From Clostridia bacterium (lineage in GTDB: Bacteria > Bacillota > Clostridia > Christensenellales > UBA3700), in the NCBI GenBank assembly GCA_029068165.1, contig JAIEDA010000018.1, positions 74,065-138,064 on the forward strand: a DNA stretch of 64,000 nt. The letters run 5' to 3'. Position numbers and translations under genes: made by a program. Numbering within the stretch: the first letter of the stretch is position 1; each line of letters opens with the position of its first letter. The notes below the pieces were generated by a model. It ran no database searches. It was not told the origin of the DNA and saw only the letters and a program-made list of their open reading frames with translations. Positions 34,248-62,543 of the stretch are shown here, one piece after another.

Positions 34248-34249
34248 TC

Positions 34250-34761: not shown

Positions 34762-35030
34762 TGCTAATAAGTGGGTTTGCCCAATAAGCGCACATATTTT
34801 TTGGCGTAACGTATCTAAAATACAACAGCAAGAGGCTCCAAAAATATGTAGGTTATTTTAGCAAATCCCACTTATAAGCCTGCACCGACTAGGGAATAAC
34901 TCTAGATAGTTTTTTAAACAGTATAGACCTTGACGTACGCTTAAGAAGCTACAGCTAACTCGATATGTCATCGCTTCGCTACTTGCGTATTTGCTTAAGG
35001 TGACATACTTCTAACGGACTATTCTATCGT
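34762..35030 (+). repeat. intergenic structured repeat, copy A (long hairpin module plus downstream modules)
   Basis: About 85-90 percent identical over roughly 118 nt to 61979-62096 and weaker over the next 60-70 nt. Outer stem GCTAATAAGTGGGTTTGC / GCAAATCCCACTTATAAGC, inner stem CACATATTTTTTGG / CCAAAAATATGT. Confidence 0.75.
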
Positions 35031-35226
35031 TACCCTGAGCACAGTCAAAGCGGTTAACTTTTTATACTACCTAGAGATAATCCTTACTCGGCTTGGGCGG
35101 TTAAGTGTGTTTTACGATTATTACGCTCTTGGCGGTATCAATAGTAAAATTGTCCAGCTTAGTTGAGCGGGTGAGATACTTTTTAGACTTGACTAGTCTA
35201 CCTTTTCGCCTAACGAAAAAATACAC

Positions 35227-35255
35227 TTGACAAAACGATTGTTATTTATTAAAAT
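35227..35255 (+). promoter_or_regulatory. sigma-A type promoter for rex
   Basis: TTGACA (35227-32), 17-nt spacer, TAAAAT (35250-55), about 30 nt upstream of the rex ATG. Confidence 0.55.
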
Positions 35256-35285
35256 GTTAAATACAAAAGTGAAGGGGGAAGCAAA

Positions 35286-35900
35286 ATGATTTCCGAGGCA
35301 GTAATCAAGAGATTGCCGCGCTACTACAGGCTTATCAAACAGCTTGCCGACGGCGGTGTGGATCGCGTTTCCTCCACAAAAATCGCCGACGTGCTTAGTA
35401 TTACCGCTTCGCAAGTCAGGCAGGACTTGTGCAACTTTGGCGGTTTCGGTCAGCAAGGATACGGTTACGACGTGCAAAAGCTTAAGAACGAACTCGCCGC
35501 TATTTTAGGACTTGACAAGCAATATGATTTGATAATCGTAGGAGCGGGTAACATAGGCAGGGCGCTTGCGGGGTATAAAGGCTTTAAGGACGACGGCTTT
35601 TACGTAAAGGCGCTTTTTGATATAGAGCCGAGGTGTTCGAGCATCAACGGTATTAAAGTGTACGATATGAAAGAACTTGCCGAGTATCTAGAACGTCACG
35701 TAGTCGACATAGCCGTCATAGCTACGCAAAAGGATTCGGCGAAGAGCGTTGCGGACGCGTTGATAGCGGGCGGAGTAAAAAGTATTTGGAATTTCGCTCC
35801 CGTAGAACTCGAAGTGCCTGAGGGCATCACCGTAGAGAGCATATCGATGAGCGAAAGTCTTTATCTTTTAAGCTATCGCAATAAAAACAATAATAATTGA
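35286..35900 (+). CDS. rex: redox-sensing transcriptional repressor Rex
   Basis: 204 aa. RLPRYYRLIKQL, SSTKIADVLSITASQVRQDL (winged helix) and a Rossmann motif IIVGAGNIGRALAGY. Confidence 0.93.
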   Translation: MISEAVIKRLPRYYRLIKQLADGGVDRVSSTKIADVLSITASQVRQDLCNFGGFGQQGYGYDVQKLKNELAAILGLDKQYDLIIVGAGNIGRALAGYKGFKDDGFYVKALFDIEPRCSSINGIKVYDMKELAEYLERHVVDIAVIATQKDSAKSVADALIAGGVKSIWNFAPVELEVPEGITVESISMSESLYLLSYRNKNNNN

Positions 35901-35934
35901 CAATAAAACACCGATTATAGGTTTAGGAGGATAT

Positions 35935-36414
35935 ATGGCAAAATCTAAAGAATACGTTTTGACGAAAGAAGGCTACGATAATCTAGTAAAAAAGCTTGAC
36001 CACCTTATCAACGTCGAGAGGAAAGAAGCCAGCGAAAAGATCAAGCAGGCGAGAGAATTCGGCGACTTGTCCGAAAATGCCGAGTACGATGCAGCTAAGG
36101 ACTATCAAGCTCACGTAGAGTCCGAAATCATTACCATTCAAGCTCAGTTGGACAATGCGGTTATTATCGAAGAGAAAGACGGAGAAGCTCCGGCTACCGT
36201 AGTTGCGGGCTGCAAAGTAAGGTTCCGCGATTTTTCCGACGGAGAATACTACGAGTATACGATAGTAGGTACTACCGAAGCGAATATTCTCGAAAATAAG
36301 ATCAGCAACGAATCGCCTTTGGCGCAAGCGCTTTTGGGACAAAAGAAAGGCGCCGACGTTATGGTGGATATGGACGGCGAAAAGTTTAGGATAAAGATAC
36401 TCAACATAAGCTGA
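35935..36414 (+). CDS. greA: transcription elongation factor GreA
   Basis: 159 aa. REFGDLSENAEYDAAKD is the GreA signature, in a coiled-coil plus FKBP-like layout. Confidence 0.93.
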   Translation: MAKSKEYVLTKEGYDNLVKKLDHLINVERKEASEKIKQAREFGDLSENAEYDAAKDYQAHVESEIITIQAQLDNAVIIEEKDGEAPATVVAGCKVRFRDFSDGEYYEYTIVGTTEANILENKISNESPLAQALLGQKKGADVMVDMDGEKFRIKILNIS

Positions 36415-45811: not shown

Positions 45812-46399
45812 ATGTTGACACAGGAACAAGCTTTGGATTGCTATAAAAAGACGGGAGCAGTTTTGAAAGGGCATTTCAAACTCACTTCGGGAAGACACAG
45901 CGATACTTATATGCAAAGCGCTAAATTGTTCATTGACACCAAGCAAAGCGAGAGAGTTTGCAAAGCTTTGGCTGAAAAACTCGAGGGCGAAAAGATAGAC
46001 TTGGTCGTATCGCCGGCGATAGGCGGAATACTTATGGGATACGAGGTTGCCCGTCAGCTTGGCGTACCCAACATCTTTGCCGAGAGAGAAAACGGCGAAA
46101 TGACGTTGCGTAGAGGTTTTTCTATTGAGCAGGGCGCTAAAGTCGTAGTAGTCGAGGACGTTGTTACAACGGGCGGTTCGGTCAAGGAAGTAGTCAAGCT
46201 CGTGCAAAGCCTTGGCGCGGAAGTCGTAGCGGTCGCTTCGCTCGTAGATAGAAGCAACGGCGCGGTAGATTTCGGAGTAAAGTACGTCAACCTTATCAGT
46301 ATGGAAGTAGTGTCGTACGAGCCCGAGGAGTGTCCGATTTGCAAAGAGGGCAAGTTGGAGCTTGTTAAGCCGGGTTCAAGACTGGTATTTAAAAAATAA
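45812..46399 (+). CDS. pyrE: orotate phosphoribosyltransferase
   Basis: 195 aa. PRPP motif VVVVEDVVTTGGS. Confidence 0.92.
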   Translation: MLTQEQALDCYKKTGAVLKGHFKLTSGRHSDTYMQSAKLFIDTKQSERVCKALAEKLEGEKIDLVVSPAIGGILMGYEVARQLGVPNIFAERENGEMTLRRGFSIEQGAKVVVVEDVVTTGGSVKEVVKLVQSLGAEVVAVASLVDRSNGAVDFGVKYVNLISMEVVSYEPEECPICKEGKLELVKPGSRLVFKK

Positions 46400-47226
46400 T
46401 GACTGATTATATCCAAAGACTGGAGCGCGCCTATAAATCGCTTAGAGAAAAGACCGACTTTTCACCCGATTTGCTGTTGATACTAGGCAGCGGACTGGGT
46501 AGCCTTGCCGACGAAATGCAAGTCGTGACGAAGATAGACTACGGCGAAATCGACGGAATGCCGACCAGCACCGTCGTCGGACACGCGGGAAGATTTTTAT
46601 TCGGATATATCAACGGAGTAAAGGTTGCGGTTATGCAGGGCAGGTTGCACTATTACGAGGGATATACTCCTCAAGAGTGCGTTATGCCGATAAGACTTAT
46701 CGCGCTTGCAGGCGCAAAGGCTATGCTGCTTACAAACGCTTCAGGCGGAATAACCTTTCCCGAGATAGGCACGCTTATGAGAATAACCGACCATATATCT
46801 TTAGTTCCTTCGCCGCTTAGAGGAGAAAACTGGGATAGGCTGGGCAAACGCTTTCCCGATATGACCAAACCTTACGACGAGAAGATTGGCAAAGCTATCG
46901 ACGGTATAGCCGACGAATTGGGAATAGTACTCGAAAAGGGCGTGTATATACAGTTTCAAGGTCCAAATTTCGAAACGGCAAGCGAGATCAAAATGGCAAA
47001 ACTTCTAGGCGCTGACGCGGTGGGTATGTCTTCGGCGATAGAAGTGATTGCCGCAAGGCACGCGGGATTGAGAGTGGCGGCGATTGCGTGCATAGTCAAT
47101 CCTGCTTGCGGAATAACCAAAGCTACGTTGGACGATATAGACGAGAGCGTAGCGGTTGAAAAGTCGGGCGACAAACTCAAGTCGCTGATTTTCAATAGTA
47201 TAGCAAAAATTAAGGAAATGCTTTAG
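46399..47226 (+). CDS. purine (or methylthioinosine) nucleoside phosphorylase, trimeric PNP family
   Basis: 275 aa. ILGSGLG, GHAGRF..G, NASGG and GMS motifs of PunA/MTAP-type phosphorylases. Confidence 0.85.
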   Translation: MTDYIQRLERAYKSLREKTDFSPDLLLILGSGLGSLADEMQVVTKIDYGEIDGMPTSTVVGHAGRFLFGYINGVKVAVMQGRLHYYEGYTPQECVMPIRLIALAGAKAMLLTNASGGITFPEIGTLMRITDHISLVPSPLRGENWDRLGKRFPDMTKPYDEKIGKAIDGIADELGIVLEKGVYIQFQGPNFETASEIKMAKLLGADAVGMSSAIEVIAARHAGLRVAAIACIVNPACGITKATLDDIDESVAVEKSGDKLKSLIFNSIAKIKEML

Positions 47227-47229
47227 CGT

Positions 47230-48507
47230 ATGATGATAAGGATTTACAACGCGAGAATACTCACGCCGAGCGGTCTTTTGGACGGCGGCGAGATGTGGAT
47301 AGAGGACGGAAAGATTAAATTCGTTAGTCAGGTTTCGCCGCTCATTCTATTGCCGTGGGATAGAGAGATAGACGCAAAAGGCAATCTTTTGATACCGTCT
47401 TTCAAAAACGCTCACGCTCATTCTCCTATGGTATTCTTGAGGTCGTACGCCGACGATATGGCGCTCGGCGATTGGCTTTTCAAACAGGTGTTCCCGAGAG
47501 AGGCGAAACTCACCGAGGACGATTGCTATTGGCTGACTAAACTTGCGATATTGGAATATTTATCTTCGGGTATTTCCGTGGCGAGCGATATGTATTTTCA
47601 TCTAGAAAGCATTGCCGAAGCGTGCGTAGAGAGCGGCTTCCGCAACGTTATATTAGAGGGAATAACCGACTCCAACAAGAACGGACTTTACGAGAAGTTG
47701 CAACGCGGTATGGATAAGCTTGACGGCAAGGGCGGACTTATCGAGTATAGACTGGGACTTCACGCCGAGTATACGAATAGCGAAGAGTGCATAAAAATGC
47801 TTGCGGGTTTTGCAAAAGAAAATAAAATGCCCGTATATACGCACTTGGACGAAACCAAAGGCGAAGTCGACGGCTGCGTTGAACGTCACGGAAAGACTCC
47901 AGGCGAATATCTTGCCGACTTGGGACTTTTCGATTACGGCGGCATAGCGTACCATTTCGTACATCCGTCCGAAAACGATATTCGCGCGCTCAAAGAAAGG
48001 GGCGTAAGTATCGTGACTTGTCCTGCGAGCAATCTCAAACTCGCAAGCGGCGTAGCTCCGCTTAAGAAATTGGCGGACTTAGGCTTTAATATAGCGTTGG
48101 GTACGGACGGACCTGCAAGCAACAACGCTTTGGATATGTTTAGAGAAATGTATTTGGCGACGGGACTGCAAAAGGGAACTCTTTACGACCCGACGGTGAT
48201 TTCTGGCGAGAGCGTGTTTAATATGGCTACGGCAAACGGGGCTAAGGCTATGGGACTTGACGGACTTGACGGCTTGGAAGTTGGCAAAGACGCGGATATA
48301 GTAATGATAGATTTGCATCAGCCTAATATGCAGCCGCTCAACGATATCGTCAAAAACGTAGTCTATTCGGGCAGTAAAGCCAACGTACTTATGACCATAG
48401 TCGCGGGCAAAATACTGTATGAAAAGGGAGAATATTTTATAGGCGAGGACGCGGACAAGATTTACTCGAAGTGTCAACAAATCGCCGACAGGATACTGGA
48501 AAGATGA
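47230..48507 (+). CDS. mtaD: amidohydrolase-family nucleoside deaminase (MTA/SAH deaminase MtaD-like)
   Basis: 425 aa. NAHAHSPM metal motif, HLDET, and LGTDGPASNN. Confidence 0.75.
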   Translation: MMIRIYNARILTPSGLLDGGEMWIEDGKIKFVSQVSPLILLPWDREIDAKGNLLIPSFKNAHAHSPMVFLRSYADDMALGDWLFKQVFPREAKLTEDDCYWLTKLAILEYLSSGISVASDMYFHLESIAEACVESGFRNVILEGITDSNKNGLYEKLQRGMDKLDGKGGLIEYRLGLHAEYTNSEECIKMLAGFAKENKMPVYTHLDETKGEVDGCVERHGKTPGEYLADLGLFDYGGIAYHFVHPSENDIRALKERGVSIVTCPASNLKLASGVAPLKKLADLGFNIALGTDGPASNNALDMFREMYLATGLQKGTLYDPTVISGESVFNMATANGAKAMGLDGLDGLEVGKDADIVMIDLHQPNMQPLNDIVKNVVYSGSKANVLMTIVAGKILYEKGEYFIGEDADKIYSKCQQIADRILER

Positions 48508-49016
48508 AATTGACTTTTAAGGCAAAACGCAATATAGGACTCGTTGTCATGACGATAGCGTTGATCGTCGCTATTATTCTTATCGTGTATTTCGTACAAA
48601 AGAACGATATTGACAGCAGGCTCAAGAACGGCTCGATTGGTCAAACGGTGTCCACTTCGCAAGCCGAGGTTTGCGTAAATGATAGGAAGATTTCCAAAGA
48701 CTTCAGCGTTGTGACGGCAAACGGCGACAAAGTCTTTTTGCTTGTAAAAGTTGAGATCACGGCGAATAAGAAGCTGACTCTATCTAGCAAAGATTTTGAG
48801 GTCAAAGACGGATTGAACGTGACCAACGCCTACTCTAGCGACAACGGTCATAGCTTTGCGGCTGAAGAGTCGGAAGTCGTACTCAAAAAGGGCGAGAGCG
48901 CGACGTACGATCTCGTGTTTGAAGTCGACGGCAATAGAGTTGAAAGTTATTTTCTTTACGCGCTCGGCGCGAGAATCGACTTGGGCGGAACCGTAGTCGG
49001 CGGATTGGGATATTGA
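48504..49016 (+). CDS. membrane-anchored DUF4352-like beta-sandwich protein
   Basis: Start chosen at the ATGA overlap (MKLTFKAKRNIGLVVMTIALIVAIILIVYF is an N-terminal TM anchor). The ectodomain has the pattern KVFLLVKVEITAN...FEV. Confidence 0.55.
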   Translation: MKLTFKAKRNIGLVVMTIALIVAIILIVYFVQKNDIDSRLKNGSIGQTVSTSQAEVCVNDRKISKDFSVVTANGDKVFLLVKVEITANKKLTLSSKDFEVKDGLNVTNAYSSDNGHSFAAEESEVVLKKGESATYDLVFEVDGNRVESYFLYALGARIDLGGTVVGGLGY

Positions 49017-49109
49017 AATTAAAAGAACGGTAAACAAATATAAAATTCGCGGAAAATAATTTGAAAAGATAAAAATTTAATGGAATATATTATATAAGTA
49101 GAGGTAGAA

Positions 49110-50687
49110 ATGTTACAAGTAAACGACGTGTTTTTGCAATTTGGCGGTAGGAAACTCTTTGAGGACGTAAATCTCAAGTTCACCGACAACAACTGTTACG
49201 GCATTATCGGCGCGAACGGCGCGGGAAAGTCGACTTTCCTCAAGATTTTATCGGGAGAACTAGAGCCTACGAGAGGCACGGTCAGCATTGGCAAAAATCA
49301 AAGAATAAGCGTACTTAATCAAAATCAAAACGACTTCGACGACTGCACCGTTATGCGTACGGTGCTTATGGGGCATAAGCGTTTAGTTAAAATAATGGAC
49401 GAGAAAGACGAGCTTTACGCAAAGCCCGATTTCAGCGAAGAGGACGGAAACCGCGCCGCGGAGCTAGAAACGGAGTTTGCCGAGCTGGGCGGTTGGGAAG
49501 CCGAGAGCGAAGCGGCTTCGCTGCTCAACGAGTTGAAGTTCGGCGAGGAATACCACGATATGCTGATGGGCGAGCTTGACGGTAAGCAAAAGGTTAAGAT
49601 ACTTCTTGCTCAAGCGCTGTTCGGCAATCCCGATATACTCATACTTGACGAGCCGACCAACAACTTGGACGCTAAATCGATTATGTGGCTTGAAAACTTC
49701 TTGCTCGACTTTAAAAACACTATAATAATCGTGTCGCACAACAGGCACTTCCTCAACAAGGTGTGCACGCATATTTGCGACGTAGACTACGGTCATATCA
49801 ATATGTACGTTGGCAACTACGATTTTTGGTACGAAACAAATCAGCTTCTTGCCAAGCAAGCTAGAGAGGCCAACAAAAAAGCCGAAGCGAGAGCCAAGGA
49901 ACTTCAAGAGTTTATCGCAAGGTTCTCGGCAAACGCAAGCAAGTCCCGCCAAGCTACTTCGAGAAAGAAAGAGCTTGAAAAACTCACTCTTGAGGATATA
50001 AAACCTTCTATGCGTAAGTATCCGTATATCAACTTTGAGTTTGAGCAGGAACTGGGCAAGGATATTCTCACCGTTGAGGGTTTGACAAAAAAAGGTTTCT
50101 TTGAGGACGTGACGTTCACGATACAAAAGGGCGAAAAAGTAGCGTTCCTATCCGACAAGTCCATCAATATATCGATGCTTTTCGATATACTTATGGGTAT
50201 TGAGCAAGCGGACGGAGGAACTTTTAAGTGGGGCAAGACGGTCAAGACGAGTTACGTGCCGCAAAACTTTGACAGCTTCTTTGACGGCGTTCAGCTCTCG
50301 CTTGTCGAGTGGATAAACCAATTTGCCGTCAAGGACCATACCGAAAGCTACTTAAGAGGTTGGCTGGGAAGAATGTTGTTCTCGGGCGAGGAAGCCAAGA
50401 AAAAAGCCTGCGTACTGAGCGGAGGCGAGAAAGTAAGGTGTATGATGGCCAGAGCTATGCTTCAAGGCGGCAACTTCGTCATTTTGGACGAACCTACCAA
50501 CCACCTCGATTTGGAAGCGATAACCGCGCTGAACAAGGGAATGATAAACTTTAAGGGCGGACTTTTCTTTGCTTCGCACGACCAAGAGCTTATGCAAACC
50601 GTTGCCGATAGAATTATTGAAATCAACGGTACTAAGACTTTTGACAAACTTACTACATACGAAGAATATTTACAAATGACGGAGTAA
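49110..50687 (+). CDS. ABC-F family ATPase (translation factor / ribosome-associated type)
   Basis: 525 aa. Two NBDs (GANGAGKST, LILDEPTN, LSGGEKVR, ILDEPTNHLD) joined by a charged linker, with no TM domain. Confidence 0.88.
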   Translation: MLQVNDVFLQFGGRKLFEDVNLKFTDNNCYGIIGANGAGKSTFLKILSGELEPTRGTVSIGKNQRISVLNQNQNDFDDCTVMRTVLMGHKRLVKIMDEKDELYAKPDFSEEDGNRAAELETEFAELGGWEAESEAASLLNELKFGEEYHDMLMGELDGKQKVKILLAQALFGNPDILILDEPTNNLDAKSIMWLENFLLDFKNTIIIVSHNRHFLNKVCTHICDVDYGHINMYVGNYDFWYETNQLLAKQAREANKKAEARAKELQEFIARFSANASKSRQATSRKKELEKLTLEDIKPSMRKYPYINFEFEQELGKDILTVEGLTKKGFFEDVTFTIQKGEKVAFLSDKSINISMLFDILMGIEQADGGTFKWGKTVKTSYVPQNFDSFFDGVQLSLVEWINQFAVKDHTESYLRGWLGRMLFSGEEAKKKACVLSGGEKVRCMMARAMLQGGNFVILDEPTNHLDLEAITALNKGMINFKGGLFFASHDQELMQTVADRIIEINGTKTFDKLTTYEEYLQMTE

Positions 50688-50693
50688 AATATT

Positions 50694-51185
50694 ATGGATA
50701 AATTCGACGAAAAGATTTTGCAGGTATTGAAAGACGACAGCAGGTTCACCTCGGCGCAAATCGCTCAAATCGTAAGACTTGACGAAAAAGAGGTTAAGAG
50801 CCGCATTAAGGCTATGGAAGGCAGCGGGGTCATCGCGAAGTACACGGTACTTTGCAATCCCGACAAGCTCGACGAGGACGTGGTTACCGCGCTTATCGAA
50901 GTAAAGGTTACGCCGCAAATGAGCAGCGGTTTCGACGCGATAGCAAAGACTATCTATCAGTTTGAAGAGGTAAAAGACGTTTATCTTATGAGCGGCGCGT
51001 ACGATCTTTGCATTACGGTTGAGGGCAAGAACTTGAGAGAGGTTTCAAGATTCGTCTCCGAAAAACTCTCGACTATGCGCGATATCGTTTCGACCGCTAC
51101 TCATTTCATACTCAAAAAGTATAAGACCGAAGGCGTGCTTCTAGACGACGTCGACGGCGACGAAAAACGGCAAGTGATACTATGA
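50694..51185 (+). CDS. Lrp/AsnC-family transcriptional regulator
   Basis: 163 aa. N-terminal HTH (ILQVLKDDSRFTSAQIAQIV) and a RAM domain. Overlaps the aminotransferase start, resembling the B. subtilis alaR-alaT arrangement. Confidence 0.85.
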   Translation: MDKFDEKILQVLKDDSRFTSAQIAQIVRLDEKEVKSRIKAMEGSGVIAKYTVLCNPDKLDEDVVTALIEVKVTPQMSSGFDAIAKTIYQFEEVKDVYLMSGAYDLCITVEGKNLREVSRFVSEKLSTMRDIVSTATHFILKKYKTEGVLLDDVDGDEKRQVIL

Positions 51186-52366
51186 ATTACGAAAAATATT
51201 TATCCAAAACGGTGACGGCTATTCCGCCGTCGGGAATAAGGAAATTCTTTGACTTGGCTGACAAGTACAAAGACATAATCTCGCTCGGCGTGGGCGAGCC
51301 TGACTTTGATACGCCTTGGTGCGCAAGCGAAGCGGCTATCAAGAGTATCCAAAAGGGTATGACGCACTACACGAGCAACAGCGGACTTCCTGCATTGAGA
51401 GAGCAAATCGCCAAGTATCTCAACTATAAATTCGGCGTGGACTATGATCCCGTGACCGAGATATTTATTACCGTCGGAGCAAGCGAAGCGATTTATCTTG
51501 CGCTTAGAGCTATTATCAACGACGGCGACGAAGTCGTAGTTCCTGAACCCAGTTACGTATCGTATCAGCCGAGTATAGCTATTTGCGGCGGAAAGGCTGT
51601 TCCGGCAAAGTGCTTCGTAGAGGACGAGTTTAGACTGACGGCGAAGAACTTGGAAAAGGTGATTACTCCCAAGACCAAGGCGCTGATTTTGCCTTATCCC
51701 AACAACCCAACCGGCGCGGTTATGCCGCGGGAAAGTCTTGAGCAAATAGCCAAGGTAGTCAAAAAACACGACTTGCTCGTGATAAGCGACGAGATATATT
51801 GCGAAATGACCTACGGCGAGCAAAGACATACTTGTTTTGCCGAAATCGACGGTATGAAAGAGCGTTGCGTGCTTATCAACGGTTTTAGCAAATCGTTTGC
51901 AATGACGGGCTGGAGAGTGGGATACGCTTGCGCTCCCAACGAGATTTTCAAGCAAATGCTAAAGATACATCAGTACATAATAATGTGCGCGTCGACCAAT
52001 TCTCAATATGCGGCGTTTGCGGCGCTAAAAGGCGGCTTTGAAAACGACTTTGCCGAAATGCGTAAAATGATTGAAGAGTACGATATGCGTAGAAGATTTC
52101 TCGTGGCAAGGCTCAACGATATGGGGTTGACGTGTTTTGAGCCGAAAGGCGCGTTTTACGTTTTTCCGTGCGTAAAGAGTACGGGAATGGACGGGGAAGA
52201 GTTTGCGAGCAAACTCTTGGAAGAGAGCAGAGTAGCCGTCGTTCCGGGCGAAGCGTTTGGAGAGAGCGGCAAGGACTTTATTAGAATATCCTACGCCTAT
52301 TCGCTAAGCAAGCTGCAAAAAGCGATAGAAAGAATTGAAGAATTTACAAAAAAATATAAGAAGTAG
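51182..52366 (+). CDS. class I PLP-dependent aminotransferase (AlaT/AspB-like)
   Basis: 394 aa. NPTG, and the SKSFAMTGWRVGY PLP-lysine block. Confidence 0.88.
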   Translation: MNYEKYLSKTVTAIPPSGIRKFFDLADKYKDIISLGVGEPDFDTPWCASEAAIKSIQKGMTHYTSNSGLPALREQIAKYLNYKFGVDYDPVTEIFITVGASEAIYLALRAIINDGDEVVVPEPSYVSYQPSIAICGGKAVPAKCFVEDEFRLTAKNLEKVITPKTKALILPYPNNPTGAVMPRESLEQIAKVVKKHDLLVISDEIYCEMTYGEQRHTCFAEIDGMKERCVLINGFSKSFAMTGWRVGYACAPNEIFKQMLKIHQYIIMCASTNSQYAAFAALKGGFENDFAEMRKMIEEYDMRRRFLVARLNDMGLTCFEPKGAFYVFPCVKSTGMDGEEFASKLLEESRVAVVPGEAFGESGKDFIRISYAYSLSKLQKAIERIEEFTKKYKK

Positions 52367-56260: not shown

Positions 56261-56382
56261 GTGTACTTTTCCTGACTGAGAATTTATGTCAAAAATATGC
56301 ATATTTTTAACAAATTTCTACACGTATATTATACAAAATCCCCCTTGTCGAATACAAGAATATTTGGTCAGGAAAAGTACAC
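56261..56382. promoter_or_regulatory. perfect 16-bp inverted repeat pair (90-nt spacer) plus a direct repeat of the TTTCCTGACYGAG half-site, upstream of the giant gene
   Basis: GTGTACTTTTCCTGAC (56261-76) is the exact reverse complement of GTCAGGAAAAGTACAC (56367-82). TTTCCTGACTGAG (56268-80) recurs as TTTCCTGACCGAG (56385-97). Confidence 0.6.
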
Positions 56383-56458
56383 ATTTCCTGACCGAGCCAA
56401 AAATAGACTAAATTCTATACTTATTAAAAAGAAAAGAAAAGGAATAAGGGAAAAAGTT

Positions 56459-59400
56459 ATGCATAGAACTTTTTTGAGAGCTAAAATTATATGTATTTTT
56501 ATTGGGATTGCGCTCATCTTGAGCATTTTTTTATCAGCTGCGATTTTTGCGCAAAGTAATCATTCGGCGATTGCAGGTAAATCTTATCCAACTGATAACA
56601 GCGGAGTAATCTCTATTAGCGAGTTGCTTTCTACAAGTAGGGCCGATACTGCCACGAAAGTGGGAGATAGAAGTATCTTTGACTGCGCGTCTATGGTTAA
56701 ACTTTATGCTGCGTTGACAGGAAAGACCAACGCAACGTTGGACGACGTAATTGCGGAGATGGATAAGGCTGCTTACAATGCCGGCAAGACAGGTGATAAT
56801 TCTTATATTCCTAACACTTCGACCAATGGCTATTCCAATGCGTTCGTAGGGTCAATTCACTACGGTATGAACGCTCAAGATATCCGCACAGTTACGGGCG
56901 GAAGTAATATCGAGGTCACTCTAGGCGGACTTGTTTGGAACGTCGTGACTTTGACGACGACAGGACAGGCTTATGATGCAAGTACAGACACCGCCGCTGA
57001 CGTATCGGCAGGCGACGTTGTGCTTACGCTTATGCTCAAAGATCCTATTCAAAATTACAAGACATATTGGAATGGTTTTCAGTCGGTTGACGGTGGTAAT
57101 TTCGGTGAAAAGTATTCGTCTTCATATTATAGCGCTTCATTGATTAGAGCTGCGCTGCTTAACGGTTTAGACAGTTCCGGCGCAGCAATAAAATACGCTA
57201 CTGACGCGAACGCGTTGACGTCTTTTACAATAGCTACCGGCAACAGCGCTGCCATTCCGAATTACGCTAGCACGCTGGGTATATTCACCAACATAGCTGC
57301 GGCGAAGAACGTCACGAATTTTATCGTGCAACCTAGGGACGTTCTTTATCAACAGGATGAGAATATTTTCGACATACGTGTCGTAACAGGCTCTACTTAT
57401 AATTGGGGTAGTGGACAAAACGAAGCTTCTCTTAACAAGTTGCCATCATCAATTGGTACGCCGTCGACTTCTAATATAACTTACACTAGCGTGGATAGGT
57501 GGCGCAGTGGTTGCAACGTGCATTTTCAGCAAGAAAAGTCAGTCTATGGTACAGCGTCCGGTAGCGGCGTAACTTATACGGCAGGAGACCAACTATACTT
57601 TGACTGGGGATATGACTATCTATGGTTGCCAAGTTGGGCGGAAGTAGGAGAAAATGGCACCTGCTCACCAACTGCTGATGTTAATTCTTCGATCGCAGGA
57701 CTATGGGCGCTTAACGATGCGCAGCGAAAGTACACGAATACATCATCTTCGACTGCTGCTTGGCTACGGTCCGGTGGACACAGTACTTCGTCTAATGCTT
57801 ATATGCTTAATTCATTAGGAGTAAGAACTACCTCGGATATTAAAGCTGACCAATATGCCGTCCGTCCTTGCTTGAACTTAAATCTCACGGCAGCAAACAA
57901 AAGTATGCCTATTAGAGTTACTCCTGAAGATGTGGAAGTCGAGTGGGCGAACGATACTCTAAACTTAGCCAAAGCTGCAGATTTAGGCGCAGCAAATTGG
58001 TGGGATGATGATTATCTTAAAGGCGTTAGCGTGGAATATTGGAATGGTTCGGTCAAGGAGCTGCCCAAAGAGCCGGGCACATACAATGTCAAACTTAGTC
58101 TTACCGATACTGTAAACTATAGGTGGGCTGACGGTTCAACCGGCGCAAAGGAGATAGATTTTACTATAATTCCTCGGTATATTCCGTATCCCAAATGGAA
58201 TAGTGACGGCGGCACGTTAGAGTTCAACGGGCAACAAGGGCGGACGTTCGGACTGGAATATGACCAAGATTTTTGGGATAAATTCAAGGAGATAATCGGC
58301 ATAGATTACACTGAGTTATTTACCAAGATTGTAAACGTAAGCTATTCGTCAGACATTACGACGGCAAGCGCAAGTTGGAAATATAAGGCGGTCAAGGCAG
58401 GCACGTACGATTTGGCTTTTGCGATAAAAAACGATGTGAGCAAGTACTATCAGTGGAAGGACGAGCCTTCGTCAAAGAAACTTTCGTTTACGGTATCAAA
58501 GAAGAATATTAGCATAGACCTGACGACTGCAGGCACGGGGACATCTGCCGTGTTCATCGGCAAGGAAGGAGGCGCGATTCAAGCGGTTCTTAATGTTGCG
58601 CCAAATCAAATATTTGTCGATTATCCAGTGAAGTTCGTCATTAATGCTGCGAAGACGGGAAACGTACCCGACCCACTGACTGACACCATTACGCTGACAA
58701 ACGGTAGCGGATTGGTCAATATTCAGCTAGATTTGTCAGAAGTGACGGCAAGCGCGTCGTCGTATAGCTTGAGCGCTGTAAGTTCGTCGCCGGAGTACAA
58801 CGTAGTATTCACCAACTCGCCCACGCTTAGAGTTGAGGCAGACAATCCCAACGTTATCAGGTGGCAGTTGTATATCGGCGGCGTTGCGCAAATGGGTTAT
58901 TATATCGATAGCGATATCAACGACCCGAGAAATTCTAATAACCAAATAGAAATCGACTTCGACGACAGCGATTTGACGATATTCTATACTGGCAAATATA
59001 CCGAGTTCAAAGCGTCGGCATATCCGCAGGGATATGCGCTTGAGACGGGCAGCTACAACGGCGGATACGAGGTCGTCAAAGGTACTTCGACGAATAACAA
59101 CGTCGGCGTAAATGCGGATACCTACACGACAAAGGTCGACGTATACAAGCTTGACGACCTCAGTATTTTGGTCACCTTTATAATCAAGTGGAAGATAGCT
59201 CCCGCATTGTTTGACATGTCTGACGTCAAGTGGCTAAACGACGGTGACTTGCCGTACAACGGCGGACAGGCTGTATACGCTACGCTTGACCCAACGACGT
59301 TGCCTAAAGGTTTGCTAGTTCCGACGAACGGCTATTCTACCAACGTTGGTTCAGTAGTAGGCAACAGCGGAACAGCATCGGTTGAGTTTGAATTAGCTCC

Positions 59401-61960
59401 CGAATACGAGGGTAACTATATATTGCCTGTAGAGGGAGATAAGTCGACCTATACAGGATTTGGCGAAAACGAAGACTTTGAATGGGAAAAGACTTGGCAG
59501 GTAGTGCCGCATAAGATATCCACTTCAAGTTGGAGCACCGTCGCTCACCCCGACAGCAACAAGACTTTCAATATCTTGCAGCTCAAAGACCCGAGCGCGG
59601 ATACTGTAGTATCTTATTTGTATTACGAAACCGATTCCAACGGACAAATACCTGCGGGAGCAACAGGCTTGACTGTAGACGAATTGGAAATGCCAAGCGA
59701 GGGAGCAAAGTGGTACGTAGCAAAGCCTGTGCTTCAAGACACGACCAACTACGTGCTCGAGAATCCCAACGCTCAATCAAGACCGTTTATGGTAGGAGCA
59801 ATCAACGCTTCGCTAATAAAGATAACGGTAGAACCTGCAAAGACGGAGTTTAGCTACAACACTCAACCAAGACAAGTGACTGTCAAGACGAGCGGAGCTA
59901 ACTTAAACAACGGCTACTTTGACCTGACGTACTTCAAAGAGGACGGCTACACAATGCTTAGCGGAGCGCCTGTAGAGAGCGGGACGTACTGGGTGGAAAT
60001 AACGCTCAAGTCAACGTATGCGGACAAGTACTATATAGAGGGAACGACGAGTTATCAATTCACTATTGTACCCGCTGAGATAACGCCTGAGTGGATAAAC
60101 ACTGCAAGACCGCCGGTGCTCAAACTTGAGTATGGACAAATATACGCGCTTGAGTACACTATCATTGACGAGAACGGCAATGAAGTAACAAACGTAAACA
60201 ATATCCAAGCGGACAAAGTATATCAAATAAAAGCGACTATAAAAGATGCGTATAGGAACAATATACAATTCTCAATAGCGGACGGATACGGCTCGATATA
60301 CGATACGGATTACTATACGTTTAGTCTATCGGCTGAGGACATAGCGGGAGGACTGTACGATCCCAACGATCCTACGAACCCTAACTATCCGCAAGTAGAC
60401 CCCGACGCGCCGAATACCACGCCCAACAATCCTGACGACCCGACCGGCGGCAACGGCGACGACAAAGACGGAAACAAAACTTTAGAGAAGATAAAAGAGT
60501 TTTTGCAAAAGTATTGGCAAGTAATCGTTAGCGGAGTATCAATAGTATTGATAGTAGCGTTTACGGCGAAAGGATTGTCGTACGCGAGCAAGCGTAGGAA
60601 AGCAAAGAAAGAAGCTAAGAAGTATACTACGCCGGCTTACGCGATTGCATTGTTCACGGCAGGAGAGAAGCTGTGGAATATCGATTACAAGATATGGACA
60701 ATCTTAGCGTTTACGCTGTTGGGCGTAGCGGTACTAGCGTTTGTCTTTATGATGCTAGAGAAGCGCGGATTTAAGAAAGCGCAAGAAGAGTTGGAAAGCG
60801 CAAAGCTAGAGTACGCGAGAAATCCAATGGCGTACGCTACTGCAGGGGCAAATACGGCAAACGCGCAACCGCAAAATCAAGAGCCAAGCGCTGAAGAGGG
60901 AAAGAGCAATAAGAAGAAAGACCGCGAGATAGAACGGCTTGAAGAAGAATTGCGTAAACGCGACGAAGAGTATAGAAGCTTCCAAGAAGAGAGCCGTCGC
61001 CGCGATGAGGAAAATAGACGTCGTGACGAAGAAATGAAGATGATGTTTATGACTATGATGGGCGGCGCAAACGGCAACGCTAATCCGCAGTACGACGCAA
61101 ACGGCAATCCGCAGTTTGCCACGATGGGCGGCGGAACGAATATAATAATAGATGCCGAGCATATAAAGACAATGATAACGGAAACAGTGGCGGCGTTGCT
61201 ACCTAGCGTGCAAGCGTTGCTTCCGCAACAGGCTAGTACCAACGACGAGGTGGTGCAAAAGCTGCTTGAGAAATCTCAACATAACGACGATGCGTTGAAA
61301 CAAATGATGCGCAATCAAGAAAAGCTGATCGAAAAACTTCTCGAACGCGACGAGCAAAGGGGAGCTGCTTCCGACAAGGTAGTAGAAAAAGTCGTAGAAA
61401 AACCCGTCGAAAAGATAGTGGAAGTACCCGTAGAGAAGATTGTCGAAGTGCCGGTTGAGAAAATAGTGGAAAAGGTAGTTGAGAAGAAAGTCAAAGTACC
61501 GGTAGAGAAGATAGTTGAGAAAATCGTCAAAGTACCTGCCGAGAAGAAAGCGCCCGCAGTGGAAAGAGCGCCAAGGCTCAACATCGACGAAGCTTACGCT
61601 AGGTTGAGCAAAGAGCAAAAGAAATTCTTTGATAAGCTCCGCGAGTACGCTCTTTCAAAAGATAAGTGCAAAGAGAAGAAGTTGACCTACAATATTTTGC
61701 TTGGTCAATCGTCTATCAATCCGCTTGTCAAGCTGACGATAAAGAAAGACACGACGGTAGCTTTGTTCAAGATGGAAGACGAGTATTTCAAGGATATACG
61801 CCGCAACGCGGAAGGGTCTAAGATAAAAGTCAAGGAAAGCGAGCTTGTCGTCGCCGACGCGGAATCGTTTGAAACGGCAAAGCAAATGATAGACCTTCGC
61901 GAAGATCAAATCGAGCGATATGCCGAGTTCTTGAAAGAACAAAAAGCATACAAGAAATAA
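56459..61960 (+). CDS. 1833-aa membrane-anchored surface protein: signal peptide, adhesin-like ectodomain, TM helices, long charged repeat-containing tail
   Basis: Start placed at ATG 56459 (RBS AAGGGAAAAAG; MHRTFLRAKIICIFIGIALILSIFLSAAIFA is a signal peptide). The region from the ORF-track start at 56297 has no signal-peptide logic and overlaps the inverted repeat. A WLRSGG...VRPCLNLNL motif is followed by at least 6 Ig-like modules (GTY.V.L ... F.I.P pattern), a Pro/Asn/Asp linker, TM helices at about 60511-60575 and 60692-60756, a coiled coil, xVEK repeats and a C-terminal domain. Confidence 0.85.
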   Translation: MHRTFLRAKIICIFIGIALILSIFLSAAIFAQSNHSAIAGKSYPTDNSGVISISELLSTSRADTATKVGDRSIFDCASMVKLYAALTGKTNATLDDVIAEMDKAAYNAGKTGDNSYIPNTSTNGYSNAFVGSIHYGMNAQDIRTVTGGSNIEVTLGGLVWNVVTLTTTGQAYDASTDTAADVSAGDVVLTLMLKDPIQNYKTYWNGFQSVDGGNFGEKYSSSYYSASLIRAALLNGLDSSGAAIKYATDANALTSFTIATGNSAAIPNYASTLGIFTNIAAAKNVTNFIVQPRDVLYQQDENIFDIRVVTGSTYNWGSGQNEASLNKLPSSIGTPSTSNITYTSVDRWRSGCNVHFQQEKSVYGTASGSGVTYTAGDQLYFDWGYDYLWLPSWAEVGENGTCSPTADVNSSIAGLWALNDAQRKYTNTSSSTAAWLRSGGHSTSSNAYMLNSLGVRTTSDIKADQYAVRPCLNLNLTAANKSMPIRVTPEDVEVEWANDTLNLAKAADLGAANWWDDDYLKGVSVEYWNGSVKELPKEPGTYNVKLSLTDTVNYRWADGSTGAKEIDFTIIPRYIPYPKWNSDGGTLEFNGQQGRTFGLEYDQDFWDKFKEIIGIDYTELFTKIVNVSYSSDITTASASWKYKAVKAGTYDLAFAIKNDVSKYYQWKDEPSSKKLSFTVSKKNISIDLTTAGTGTSAVFIGKEGGAIQAVLNVAPNQIFVDYPVKFVINAAKTGNVPDPLTDTITLTNGSGLVNIQLDLSEVTASASSYSLSAVSSSPEYNVVFTNSPTLRVEADNPNVIRWQLYIGGVAQMGYYIDSDINDPRNSNNQIEIDFDDSDLTIFYTGKYTEFKASAYPQGYALETGSYNGGYEVVKGTSTNNNVGVNADTYTTKVDVYKLDDLSILVTFIIKWKIAPALFDMSDVKWLNDGDLPYNGGQAVYATLDPTTLPKGLLVPTNGYSTNVGSVVGNSGTASVEFELAPEYEGNYILPVEGDKSTYTGFGENEDFEWEKTWQVVPHKISTSSWSTVAHPDSNKTFNILQLKDPSADTVVSYLYYETDSNGQIPAGATGLTVDELEMPSEGAKWYVAKPVLQDTTNYVLENPNAQSRPFMVGAINASLIKITVEPAKTEFSYNTQPRQVTVKTSGANLNNGYFDLTYFKEDGYTMLSGAPVESGTYWVEITLKSTYADKYYIEGTTSYQFTIVPAEITPEWINTARPPVLKLEYGQIYALEYTIIDENGNEVTNVNNIQADKVYQIKATIKDAYRNNIQFSIADGYGSIYDTDYYTFSLSAEDIAGGLYDPNDPTNPNYPQVDPDAPNTTPNNPDDPTGGNGDDKDGNKTLEKIKEFLQKYWQVIVSGVSIVLIVAFTAKGLSYASKRRKAKKEAKKYTTPAYAIALFTAGEKLWNIDYKIWTILAFTLLGVAVLAFVFMMLEKRGFKKAQEELESAKLEYARNPMAYATAGANTANAQPQNQEPSAEEGKSNKKKDREIERLEEELRKRDEEYRSFQEESRRRDEENRRRDEEMKMMFMTMMGGANGNANPQYDANGNPQFATMGGGTNIIIDAEHIKTMITETVAALLPSVQALLPQQASTNDEVVQKLLEKSQHNDDALKQMMRNQEKLIEKLLERDEQRGAASDKVVEKVVEKPVEKIVEVPVEKIVEVPVEKIVEKVVEKKVKVPVEKIVEKIVKVPAEKKAPAVERAPRLNIDEAYARLSKEQKKFFDKLREYALSKDKCKEKKLTYNILLGQSSINPLVKLTIKKDTTVALFKMEDEYFKDIRRNAEGSKIKVKESELVVADAESFETAKQMIDLREDQIERYAEFLKEQKAYKK
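61379..61546 (+). repeat. in-frame tandem repeat: 14 tetrapeptide units (xVEK/xVEV), 12-nt period
   Basis: Reads VVEK VVEK PVEK IVEV PVEK IVEV PVEK IVEK VVEK KVKV PVEK IVEK IVKV PAEK. Units use different synonymous codons (gaa aag ata gtg gaa gta ccc versus gag aag att gtc gaa gtg ccg). Confidence 0.9.
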
Positions 61961-61978: not shown

Positions 61979-62188
61979 AGCTAATAAGTGAGATTTGCCC
62001 AATAATCGCGCATATTTTTTGGCGTAACGCATCTTAAATACGAAAGAAAGAGGCTTCAAAAATATGTAGGTTATTTAAGCAAATCCCACTTAACCGCTCA
62101 GGCTGACTAAGGAATATCTCTAGTTAGTTTTAAATGGTTTAGATCCTTCGTCTATGCTCAAGGCGCTGATAGAATAGTCCGTTAGAAA
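61979..62188 (+). repeat. intergenic structured repeat, copy B
   Basis: Homologous to 34762-34950. Its last 20 nt, GATAGAATAGTCCGTTAGAA (62169-62188), are the reverse complement of TTCTAACGGACTATTCTATC at 35009-35028. Confidence 0.75.
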
Positions 62189-62328: not shown

Positions 62329-62357
62329 TTGCCATATCTTTTTTTATATAGTAAAAT
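62329..62357 (+). promoter_or_regulatory. sigma-A promoter for the S10 operon
   Basis: TTGCCA (62329-34), 17 nt, TAAAAT (62352-57). Confidence 0.5.
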
Positions 62358-62362
62358 CATTT

Positions 62363-62543
62363 TGCTTATGCCGCAAGGGATGAAGCGGGAGGTTACTGCC
62401 TTTTGGGAGAGAACTTTCGCGGACAAGAGTCCGACAATCGGGCGACTAACGGATTTGGGCTGACTGCGAGCCCATTTTTAAGGGCATAGGCGGAACGCAC
62501 GGGAGTGCATATAAATAAAGTTAGGTAAAAAGGAGAAAGAAAA
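62363..62543 (+). promoter_or_regulatory. structured 5' leader of rpsJ with a terminator-like hairpin (possible r-protein autoregulatory leader)
   Basis: A 10-bp closing helix TGCTTATGCC (62363-72) / GGCATAGGCG (62483-92) has two G-U pairs. It encloses the hairpin TGGGCT-7 nt-AGCCCA followed by TTTTT (62456-79). Confidence 0.35.

What the first reader, a model, noticed from the sequence alone, without database searches (positions are those of the whole stretch)
56459..61960. 1833-aa protein linking an adhesin-like ectodomain through the membrane to a roughly 400-aa (about 400-480 aa) charged tail, inserted between rpsT and the S10 operon
The architecture, read from the sequence:
- a signal peptide (MHRTFLRAKIICIFIGIALILSIFLSAAIFAQS)
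- an N-terminal region of about 450 aa ending in WLRSGGHS…YAVRPCLNLNL, a motif pair I associate with a domain recurrent in Firmicute surface proteins (possibly DUF6273)
- at least 6 beta-rich Ig-like modules with the recurring GTY-V-L…(Y/F)-F-I-P pattern
- a Pro/Asn/Asp linker (60355-60478)
- a TM helix followed by KRRKAKKEAKK, a short hydrophobic segment, and a second strong TM helix (60692-60756)
- roughly 400 aa after the last TM helix (about 480 aa counted from the first TM helix) comprising a highly charged predicted coiled coil (REIERLEEELRKRDEEYRSFQEESRRRDEENRRRDEEMK), a Met/Gly/Asn-rich stretch, more helices, the xVEK repeat block and a C-terminal domain of about 110 aa

There is no LPXTG, SLH or choline-binding anchor. 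If the tail is cytoplasmic, which requires 3 membrane passes, the protein physically couples an extracellular binding module to an intracellular filament-like or scaffolding module. That is unusual for Gram-positive adhesins. With 2 passes, the tail would be extracellular.

The gene's position splits rpsT from the S10 operon and is bounded by repeat elements.
Basis: partly seen in the sequence, partly recalled or inferred. Interest (0 to 1): 0.7.

Follow-up and report, generated by a model that had tools for sequence, protein, structure and literature searches.

The report
Phase-variable giant surface protein, cytoplasmic tail
This gene is one copy of a large family of giant surface proteins in uncultured mouse-gut Clostridia, with a variable outside part, a conserved membrane anchor and a strongly conserved, undescribed tail that most likely sits inside the cell, and it appears to be switched on and off by a flippable promoter.

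Summary
The 1833-aa ORF (56459-61960) is real and has the described architecture. It is not an assembly fusion. Full-length relatives exist in many independent assemblies, and related MAGs carry at least 12-17 paralogs each.

Across paralogs the ectodomain is variable (23-31% identity). The anchor and tail are constant; the last 129 aa (C-dom) are 76% identical, with pN/pS 0.08-0.17.

C-dom matches no Pfam, NCBIfam or PHROG family and no solved fold. Wherever its topology is unambiguous it is cytoplasmic:
- 21 type-I giants
- 27 proteins with an N-terminal transmembrane (TM) helix
- soluble coiled-coil proteins encoded next to surface-protein genes

So the tail is most likely cytoplasmic (about 0.8). 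The second hydrophobic block would then act as a hairpin.

New finding: the "repeat" upstream is a conserved inverted-repeat element (56261-56382) enclosing a promoter. It precedes nearly all family genes and occurs in both orientations, so it is a probable invertible promoter. Here it faces away from the gene.

The rpsT/S10 position is not conserved. What the tail does is inferred only.

The parts
56261..56382 (.). Probable invertible promoter (inverton). Arms are GTGTACTTTTCCTGAC (56261-56276) and its reverse complement (56367-56382), enclosing a 90-nt segment.
   Evidence: Three matches to the arm pattern in the window against 0.02 expected. Related loci and the window together hold 26 such elements; 16 of 19 family genes with enough upstream DNA have one. 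The arms co-vary and the spacing is 68-90 nt. Homologous spacers occur in both orientations.
56328..56357 (-). Sigma-70-like promoter inside the invertible segment: TTGTAT (56357-56352), 18-nt spacer, TATAAT (56333-56328). It points away from the gene, the presumed OFF state.
   Evidence: Read from the sequence. Every one of the 26 elements has one such promoter at the same position, scoring 9-11 of 12.
56366..56393 (+). Hairpin formed by the right arm and a third partial copy of the arm (GGTCAGGAAA...TTTCCTGACC). It lies in the presumed 5' untranslated region.
   Evidence: The third motif copy recurs in relatives. The region folds with z = -5.9.
56459..61960 (+). Coding sequence of the 1833-aa protein, stop codon included.
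   Evidence: The same start is used in L092.
56459..56557 (+). Signal peptide or N-terminal signal anchor (aa 1-33).
   Evidence: KD 2.86 with a positive n-region.
56558..57898 (+). Variable N-terminal head (aa 34-480). It ends in the DUF6273-like stretch (aa 386-475, nt 57614-57883) with the WLRSG...AVRPCLNLNL motif pair.
   Evidence: The loop between the motifs is hypervariable in relatives.
57899..60346 (+). Beta-rich stalk of diverged MBG/Ig-like modules (aa 481-1296).
   Evidence: Motif recurrence only. Relatives hit MBG_3, Flg_new, Ig_2 and Big_3.
60347..60478 (+). Pro/Asn/Asp-rich linker (aa 1297-1340).
60512..60577 (+). TM1 (aa 1352-1373), the stop-transfer helix.
   Evidence: KD 2.18. 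Pairwise identity in the family is 55%.
60578..60625 (+). Cytoplasmic K/R loop (SYASKRRKAKKEAKK).
   Evidence: Family median is 8 K/R in the charged segment between the TM1 and TM2 hydrophobic blocks (for the query that segment also spans the middle segment).
60626..60757 (+). Second hydrophobic block: the middle segment (aa 1390-1410) plus TM2 (aa 1411-1433). Proposed helical or re-entrant hairpin with both ends in the cytoplasm.
   Evidence: Uncharged stretch of 34-50 aa in 33 of 42 members, with K/R on both sides. The giant in L085 has three separate hydrophobic peaks. Against: the middle segment has KD of only 0.71.
60758..61570 (+). Tail, part 1 (aa 1434-1704): charged helix (1487-1525), Met/Gly/Asn-rich stretch (1526-1565), conserved ISETV...LPQQAS motif (1566-1600), helices, and the xVEK repeat block (1639-1704, nt 61373-61570) with two exact EKIVEVP heptads.
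   Evidence: Pairwise identity is 63% for the motif and 65% for xVEK.
61571..61957 (+). C-dom (aa 1705-1833), an undescribed alpha/beta domain that is the most conserved part of the protein.
   Evidence: 76% pairwise identity. pN/pS is 0.08-0.17. 286 representatives in the profile search. AlphaFold2 pLDDT 81. No Pfam, NCBIfam, PHROG or PDB match.
61980..62170 (.). Dispersed intergenic repeat, a second copy of window 34760-34950. It is not part of the gene's machinery as far as can be told.
   Evidence: It is structured, z = -4.05, and absent from related loci.

Best explanation
The gene encodes one member of a large multigene family of giant, membrane-anchored surface proteins. The family is probably phase-variable and is found in uncultured mouse-gut Clostridia labelled Christensenella or Christensenellaceae in record titles.

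The protein is exported by an N-terminal signal. It displays a variable ectodomain: a DUF6273-type head on a stalk of MBG/Ig-like modules. A constant cassette holds it in the membrane. The cassette is TM1, a K/R loop, and a ~37-aa uncharged hairpin. This topology leaves a constant ~400-aa tail in the cytoplasm.

The tail contains a charged helix, a conserved ISETV...LPQQAS motif, an alveolin-like xVEK repeat and a novel 129-aa terminal domain (C-dom). It is the part under the strongest purifying selection. I infer that it docks the surface protein to a shared cytoplasmic partner or to other C-dom proteins, for clustering, positioning or submembrane scaffolding.

Expression is probably controlled by a 122-bp invertible promoter element 76 nt upstream of the start codon. 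In this assembly it faces away from the gene.

Shown: the architecture, the family, the conservation gradient, the contexts of C-dom, and the element in both orientations among homologous loci.

Inferred: the hairpin topology in this protein, active reversible switching, and what the tail binds.
For: Family and fusion.
- There are 10 or more full-length relatives at 48-53% identity on long contigs.
- 39 representatives have the same SP+TM1+TM2 layout.
- 355 C-dom-encoding stretches were found in the genome collection. The best 80 fall in about 11 MAGs, with 12, 16 and 17 copies in the three richest, often at contig ends.

Conservation.
- Ectodomain 23-31%, TM1 55%, TM2 53%, ISETV motif 63%, xVEK 65%, C-dom 76%.
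- For C-dom, pS is 0.47 and pN 0.038 within genomes; pS 0.79 and pN 0.137 between genomes.

Tail inside the cell.
- C-dom lies behind a single TM helix followed by K/R in 21 signal-peptide-bearing giants.
- It lies behind an N-terminal helix with 0-1 K/R before and 2-6 after in 27 small proteins.
- It occurs in complete proteins with no hydrophobic segment.
- In L087 and L088, a surface-protein gene (a giant of at least 3637 aa in L087; only its last 57 residues lie on the short L088 contig) ends in a TM helix plus a K/R tail. A small gene for a TM helix plus C-dom follows immediately or overlaps it.
- In L085 and L091, a surface protein with a long cytoplasmic coiled coil is followed by a 74-83-aa protein and then by a soluble coiled-coil protein carrying C-dom.
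- The second hydrophobic block is uncharged for 34-50 aa in 33 of 42 members. K/R flanks both ends, and Gly/Asn/Thr/Trp sit at its centre.
- The L085 giant shows three hydrophobic peaks.
- One paralog, P0015, ends its tail in a uL15-like domain, 29.7 bits against a gathering score of 21.5.

Invertible promoter.
- 26 elements have co-varying 16-nt arms and one promoter at a fixed position.
- The promoter faces the gene in L033 and L076 and faces away in about 20 others.
- L027 and L030, from the same MAG, carry near-identical spacers in opposite orientations, and L027 ends at the element.
- Such invertible promoters (invertons) near surface genes are known in gut bacteria (PMC11892184, PMC11602134).
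Against: - Only two segments are strongly hydrophobic. The middle segment has a median KD of 0.92 in its best 15-aa window, and 0.71 in this protein, where it is also interrupted by E, K, D and K.
- AlphaFold2 models the middle segment as two short, low-confidence helices (pTM 0.34).
- A standard predictor would probably call signal peptide plus 2 TM helices and place the tail outside.
- No topology predictor or experiment was available.
- For this locus only one orientation of the promoter element was seen, in two assemblies.
- No recombinase was found among 20 window ORFs.
- Orientation differences could reflect rare evolutionary inversions rather than a working switch.
- Nothing identifies a partner of C-dom. 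Fold searches gave only insignificant matches: CapZ with E about 0.05, YjbR with TM-score 0.53, and a DUF5655 phage protein with TM-score 0.53.
Confidence: 0.65

Rival explanations
1. Two-pass topology. TM1 and TM2 are the only membrane helices, so the 400-aa tail is extracellular. The xVEK block would be a wall-spanning spacer and C-dom a wall- or surface-binding module.
For: Only two strong hydropathy peaks. The middle segment is weakly hydrophobic and not modelled as a membrane helix. From general knowledge, charged repeat spacers are common in the wall-spanning parts of Gram-positive surface proteins.
Against: C-dom is cytoplasmic in every relative with unambiguous topology: 21 type-I giants, 27 N-out/C-in proteins and the soluble forms. 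Two to four K/R directly follow TM2, and the uncharged block is twice the length of TM1. No wall-binding family is hit.
Confidence: 0.17
2. The tail is a nucleic-acid- or ribosome-binding module rather than a scaffold. It would tether the surface protein's anchor to RNA or DNA in the cytoplasm.
For: Paralog P0015 ends in a uL15-like domain above Pfam's threshold. C-dom in distant relatives ends in a very basic helix. The best, though insignificant, fold resemblances include YjbR, annotated in databases as a DNA-binding family according to my own knowledge.
Against: The fold matches are not significant. Profile comparison (hhalign) finds no relation between C-dom and the non-uL15 part of the P0015 tail (the 157 aa submitted), probability 0.4%. 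The query's own C-terminal helix is only mildly basic.
Confidence: 0.1
3. The upstream inverted repeat is not a switch. It would be a conserved 5'-leader RNA structure or an operator, or a miniature mobile element carrying a promoter.
For: The arms co-vary like an RNA stem. The region folds far better than shuffles, z = -5.9. This locus was seen in one orientation only.
Against: An RNA stem or an operator does not explain homologous spacers lying in both orientations relative to homologous genes. The fixed distance to the start codon in nearly all paralogs argues against independent insertions. The promoter lies inside the repeat-flanked segment.
Confidence: 0.2
4. The N-terminal and C-terminal halves are separate genes joined here by an assembly or gene-calling error.
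For: Distant relatives do encode a surface giant and a TM-plus-C-dom protein as adjacent genes.
Against: The fused reading frame is continuous in this window and in dozens of independent assemblies. In the split relatives the giant keeps its own TM helix, so the fused form looks like a genuine evolutionary fusion.
Confidence: 0.01

Closest known systems
Invertible promoters (invertons) controlling surface structures in gut bacteria (PMC11892184, PMC11602134)
   Same: Inverted repeats flank a short segment that carries a promoter, directly upstream of surface-protein genes. Many copies occur per genome, both orientations are seen, and most copies face away from the gene.
   Different: The repeat sequence GTGTACTTTTCCTGAC and this gene family have not been described, to my knowledge. 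No recombinase was identified and no read-level evidence of switching was obtained.
Giant membrane-anchored Gram-positive surface proteins without sortase anchoring, such as Staphylococcus aureus Ebh (from my own knowledge)
   Same: N-terminal signal, a very long repetitive ectodomain, a C-terminal membrane helix followed by a positively charged cytoplasmic segment, and no LPXTG.
   Different: Here the anchor has an extra hydrophobic hairpin. It is followed by a 400-aa conserved tail with its own globular domain. The gene belongs to a family of at least 12-17 copies per genome.
DUF6273 (PF19789) proteins, described as receptor-binding domains and targets of diversity-generating retroelements in phages and gut Firmicutes (PMC10743442, PMC11792537)
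   Same: The WLRS...VRP motif pair, and a hypervariable loop between the two motifs.
   Different: The domain is near the N-terminus of a cellular membrane protein, not at the C-terminus of a phage protein. No template repeat or reverse transcriptase is present in the window.
Alveolins and epiplastins, the membrane-skeleton proteins of protists (PMC6212826, PMC12465100)
   Same: A V/E/K/P/I-rich repeat with the exact alveolin core heptad EKIVEVP, present twice. If the tail is cytoplasmic, the repeat lies next to the membrane.
   Different: The block is only 66 aa. The Pfam IMCp model scores below threshold (12.7 bits against 21.1). The resemblance is in composition and motif only, and homology is not shown.
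Mycoplasma cytadhesins linked to an internal cytoskeleton (from my own knowledge)
   Same: Transmembrane adhesins whose cytoplasmic parts are thought to connect to coiled-coil cytoplasmic proteins. Here, soluble coiled-coil proteins with C-dom are encoded next to surface-protein genes.
   Different: There is no sequence relation, and no internal structure is known in these bacteria. This is an analogy of mechanism only.

Membership tests
DUF6273 (PF19789) | HMM score at or above the gathering score (23.5 bits) | tested here: inconclusive
   The query scores 19.9 bits, E=7e-4, at aa 386-475. Of 25 family members, 11 hit at E<=0.01, best 1.2e-8.
Sortase-anchored (LPXTG) surface proteins | LPXTG-type motif followed by a hydrophobic segment and a short positive tail at the extreme C-terminus | tested here: not met
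   No LPXTG-like motif and no Gram_pos_anchor hit. The membrane helices lie 400 aa from the C-terminus.
SLH, choline-binding or other wall-binding repeat proteins | A match to the corresponding repeat families | tested here: not met
   No such hit in Pfam or NCBIfam at E<=1.
Type-I single-pass membrane protein | Signal peptide plus exactly one further membrane helix | tested here: not met
   There are two strong helices plus a middle segment. 21 distant C-dom giants do meet this criterion.
Invertible promoter (inverton) | Inverted repeats flanking a segment that contains a promoter | tested here: met
   Arms at 56261-56276 and 56367-56382, with TTGTAT-18-TATAAT inside. All 26 elements are built the same way.
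Invertible promoter (inverton) | Both orientations of the segment occur | tested here: inconclusive
   Met among homologous loci: L033 and L076 against about 20 others, and L027 against L030 in one MAG. For this locus only one orientation was seen, and the metagenome scans were empty for both orientations.
Invertible promoter (inverton) | A site-specific recombinase that acts on the repeats | tested here: not met
   None among 20 window ORFs scanned. It could be encoded elsewhere in the genome.
Alveolin / IMCp (PF12314) | HMM score at or above the gathering score (21.1 bits) | tested here: not met
   12.7 bits, E=0.17. Three of 25 relatives reach E of about 0.0015. The exact EKIVEVP heptad occurs twice.
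Target of a diversity-generating retroelement | A variable repeat paired with a template repeat differing at adenines, plus a reverse transcriptase | tested here: not met
   No second copy of the region in the window. No reverse-transcriptase motif. Differences between two paralogs fall equally on all three codon positions.

The most novel reading that the evidence does not exclude
The conserved tails, together with the separately encoded soluble and membrane-anchored C-dom proteins, assemble a submembrane lattice. The alveolin-like xVEK repeats and C-dom-to-C-dom contacts would hold it together, and it would be mechanically coupled to whichever variable adhesin is switched on. That would be a bacterial adhesin-to-membrane-skeleton linkage outside the Mollicutes, built from a domain not described so far.
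Probability: 0.15. Interest if true: 0.85.

Novelty: new variant of a known kind. Interest (0 to 1): 0.7.

Why it matters
Gram-positive adhesins are usually thought of as wall-attached passengers with nothing on the inside. Here a whole family of giant surface proteins keeps its outside free to vary. Its transmembrane cassette and a 400-aa cytoplasmic tail are held under strong purifying selection. The same terminal domain also occurs as separate cytoplasmic or membrane-anchored proteins encoded next to surface-protein genes.

This points to an unrecognised inside-outside coupling in abundant but uncultured gut Clostridia. It also defines a new domain family with a clear, testable localisation.

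The promoter-bearing inverted repeat adds a probable phase-variation system with a new repeat sequence, apparently acting on a dozen or more loci per genome. This is relevant to how these bacteria present changing surfaces to host, phage and immune system. It also explains why their assemblies break at these genes.

Tried and rejected
- Assembly fusion: rejected, because there are many independent fused copies.
- Conserved position between rpsT and S10: rejected.
  - P0002 and P0015 lie elsewhere.
  - L014 and L029 have family gene, pfk, gpr, rpsT, then other genes.
  - In L063 the family gene is 7.6 kb from rpsJ.
  - A distant DUF6273 protein does sit directly upstream of rpsJ in another genome. 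With a dozen or more copies per genome this may be chance.
- Diversity-generating retroelement acting on the DUF6273 loop: no template repeat or reverse transcriptase in the window. The nucleotide pattern between two paralogs is not adenine-specific.
- AlphaFold2 model of the membrane block: not decisive.
- Fold searches of C-dom against PDB and viral models: no match at E<=0.001.
- Sequence searches against PDB, Pfam, NCBIfam and PHROGs: nothing for the tail.
- Relation of C-dom to the tail domain of paralog P0015: none by hhalign.
- Exact-match scans of metagenome contigs for the ON and OFF junctions of this locus: both empty, so uninformative.
- Recombinase in the window: none among 20 ORFs.
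- Downstream repeat as part of the family unit: rejected, because it is absent from related loci.
- Rfam at gathering threshold: nothing in the window.
- A last profile search for named relatives of C-dom returned only 'hypothetical protein'.
Full report
**What is there**

The window holds an uninterrupted ORF at 56297..61960. An independent MAG (GCA_029057435.1, locus L092) has the same gpr-rpsT-gene arrangement. Its DNA is 100% identical over the 321 nt compared upstream of and across the start codon, and its gene call uses the same start.

Hydropathy gives three strong peaks:
- aa 10-29 (KD 2.86), the signal peptide or signal anchor with a positive n-region
- aa 1352-1373 (TM1, KD 2.18)
- aa 1412-1433 (TM2, KD 2.77)

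KRRKAKKEAKK and a weakly hydrophobic middle segment lie between TM1 and TM2.

Other checks on the description:
- The 400 residues after TM2 carry 77 K/R and 77 D/E.
- Pfam gives only a sub-threshold DUF6273 hit at aa 386-475. NCBIfam and the PDB sequence search give nothing.
- There is no LPXTG motif.
- The 'Ig-like modules' cannot be shown by self-comparison. They appear only as a recurring G-x-Y...F-x-I-x-P/K motif. Relatives hit MBG_3, Flg_new, Ig_2 and Big_3.

The description is therefore essentially correct.

**It is a member of a large family, not an oddity or a fusion artefact**

- The full protein finds relatives of 1780-1870 aa at 48-53% identity and 99-100% coverage on contigs up to 286 kb. 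More distant full-length relatives are at 31-42%.
- A profile of the last 129 aa (C-dom; alignment A1) was run against 1.84 billion cluster representatives. It finds 286 proteins at E<=0.001.
- A scan of one genome per species finds 355 encoding stretches. The best 80 lie in about 11 mouse-gut MAGs titled uncultured Christensenella, Christensenellaceae or Clostridia. The three richest MAGs have 12, 16 and 17 copies, very often at contig ends.
- This window's rpsJ product is 97% identical to that of one of these MAGs.

**The outside varies and the inside is constant**

Mean pairwise identity in an alignment of 33 full-length members:

| Region | Pairwise identity |
|---|---|
| Ectodomain | 23-31% |
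| TM1 | 55% |
| TM2 | 53% |
| ISETV...LPQQAS motif | 63% |
| xVEK block | 65% |
| C-dom | 76% |

Codon analysis of 82 C-dom copies gives pS 0.47 and pN 0.038 within genomes, and pS 0.79 and pN 0.137 between genomes. The conservation is therefore purifying selection on the protein, not only gene conversion.

**Where the tail is**

C-dom has no family in Pfam, NCBIfam or PHROGs. AlphaFold2 gives a confident alpha/beta model (pLDDT 81) with no significant structural neighbour.

Its contexts are informative. Among the representatives:
- 21 giants have a signal peptide and exactly one further helix. That helix is followed by 2-6 K/R and then by a 170-450-aa tail ending in C-dom.
- 27 small proteins have one N-terminal helix with 0-1 K/R before it and 2-6 after it, then C-dom.
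- Several complete proteins have no hydrophobic segment at all: a coiled coil, a low-complexity linker, then C-dom.

Gene neighbourhoods tie these to surface proteins.
- In L087 and L088, a surface-protein gene (a giant of at least 3637 aa in L087; only its last 57 residues lie on the short L088 contig) ends in a TM helix and KKKRK. A small gene for TM plus K/R plus C-dom follows with a 1-nt gap or an overlap.
- In L085, L086 and L091, a surface protein with a long cytoplasmic coiled coil is followed by a 74-83-aa helical protein. A soluble coiled-coil protein with C-dom comes next.

So C-dom is cytoplasmic wherever the topology is unambiguous. The architecture in this window looks like the fusion of the two-gene arrangement.

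Such a fusion needs one extra membrane crossing, and the sequence provides a candidate.
- In 33 of 42 members the second hydrophobic block is an uncharged stretch of 34-50 aa (median 37.5). That is twice the length of TM1.
- Its centre is rich in Gly, Asn, Thr and Trp.
- K/R sit on both sides: a median of 8 in the loop and 4 in the first 15 residues after it.
- The L085 giant shows three separate hydrophobic peaks.

This fits a helical or re-entrant hairpin with both ends in the cytoplasm.

Against it:
- The middle segment is only moderately hydrophobic (median KD 0.92; 0.71 in this protein, where it also contains E, K, D and K).
- AlphaFold2 modelled it as two short, low-confidence helices.

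I put the cytoplasmic tail at about 0.8.

**The upstream 'repeat' is a promoter-bearing inverted-repeat element shared by the family**

The arms GTGTACTTTTCCTGAC (56261-56276) and its complement (56367-56382) enclose 90 nt. The same arrangement precedes 16 of 19 family genes with enough upstream DNA. In all, 26 elements were found.

The arms differ between copies, even within one genome, and the two arms of a copy change together (GTGTAC.../...GTACAC, GTATAC.../...GTATAC, GTATGC.../...GCATAC).

Every element contains one sigma-70-like promoter (TTGxxx, 17-18 nt, TATAAT; 9-11 of 12) at the same position just inside one arm.
- The promoter faces away from the family gene in about 20 elements, including this window (-35 at 56357-56352, -10 at 56333-56328 on the minus strand).
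- It faces the gene in L033 and L076.
- L027 and L030, from the same MAG, carry nearly identical spacers in opposite orientations, and L027's contig ends at the element.
- One further copy faces a two-component-system operon.

An RNA leader or an operator would not explain inverted spacers. Independent insertions of a mobile element would not explain the fixed distance to the start codon in nearly all paralogs.

The best reading is an invertible promoter, a known kind of switch near surface genes in gut bacteria (PMC11892184, PMC11602134).

Not shown:
- switching at this very locus (one orientation in two assemblies; metagenome scans empty for both junctions)
- the recombinase (none among 20 window ORFs)

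**Position and the other repeat**

Family genes sit in different places in relatives. Comparison of gene order between L001 and the window suggests that rearrangement breakpoints coincide with family genes.

The S10 operon appears to have its own regulatory signals:
- a promoter-like site at 62329-62357
- a sub-threshold S10-Clostridia leader match at 62372-62448 (22.5 bits against 35.1)
- a terminator-like hairpin at 62456-62474

So the big gene is a separate unit.

The downstream repeat (61980-62170) is a second copy of window 34760-34950. It is structured (z = -4.05) and absent from related loci. It is unrelated to the upstream element.

**What the tail does**

This part is inference. The following facts point to a docking or assembly function beneath the membrane:
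- the tail is the constant, selected part
- C-dom also exists as separate cytoplasmic proteins genetically coupled to surface proteins
- the tail combines coiled coil with a V/E/K/P repeat containing the exact alveolin heptad EKIVEVP twice (PMC6212826, PMC12465100)

A nucleic-acid- or ribosome-binding role is a weaker alternative. It rests on the uL15-like domain in paralog P0015 and on the basic terminal helix in distant C-doms.

**Verdict**

The positional argument is dropped.

Two things are added: the multigene family with a constant cytoplasmic cassette containing a new domain, and the probable invertible promoter.

Noticed in passing
window 61980-62170 and 34760-34950: A ~190-nt intergenic stretch occurs twice in the window at 85-90% identity. 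The copy after the big gene folds much better than shuffles (z = -4.05). It is not found in any related locus fetched and matches no Rfam family.
   Followed up: partly
window 62329-62474: Upstream of rpsJ lie a promoter-like site (TTGCCA-17-TAAAAT), a sub-threshold match to the S10-Clostridia ribosomal leader (22.5 bits against 35.1) and a terminator-like hairpin followed by a T run. This looks like an attenuator-type leader for the S10 operon.
   Followed up: partly
P0017-P0024 (relatives); window 57761-57886: The loop between WLRSG and AVRP in the DUF6273 domain is hypervariable among otherwise ~90% identical proteins. Its residues are almost all of the kind encoded by NNC codons, which resembles a retroelement-diversified region. 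No template repeat or reverse transcriptase was found, and two paralogs differ at all codon positions.
   Followed up: partly
L084 (GCA_949840785.1), 10001-14807: A distant DUF6273 surface protein with a single TM helix (P0025, 1361 aa) also sits directly upstream of rpsJ, between rpoC and the S10 operon, in another genome. This may be coincidence or a preferred site.
   Followed up: no
L002, P0015 residues 1823-1890: One paralog replaces the xVEK block and C-dom with a different tail that ends in a domain matching ribosomal protein uL15 (PF00828, 29.7 bits, above threshold). Its gene lies next to an M60-like peptidase gene.
   Followed up: partly
L041 12301-12422: A copy of the family's promoter-bearing inverted-repeat element faces a response regulator, histidine kinase and lipoprotein operon instead of a family gene. 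The same switch may therefore control other genes.
   Followed up: no
window 28650-36414 and 46399-52366 compared with L001: Gene blocks that flank a family gene in L001 (aminotransferase on one side; IstB-like, DnaB_2, ABC transporter, Rex and GreA on the other) lie about 15 kb apart in this window with no family gene between them. This suggests genome rearrangements with breakpoints at family genes.
   Followed up: no
L085 5701-5952 and 7123-7320; L091 3679-3903: Small conserved companions sit in the three-gene cassettes: a 74-83-aa helical protein (weak DUF5660 hit) between the surface protein and the soluble C-dom protein, and in L085 a 65-aa zinc-ribbon-like protein after it.
   Followed up: no
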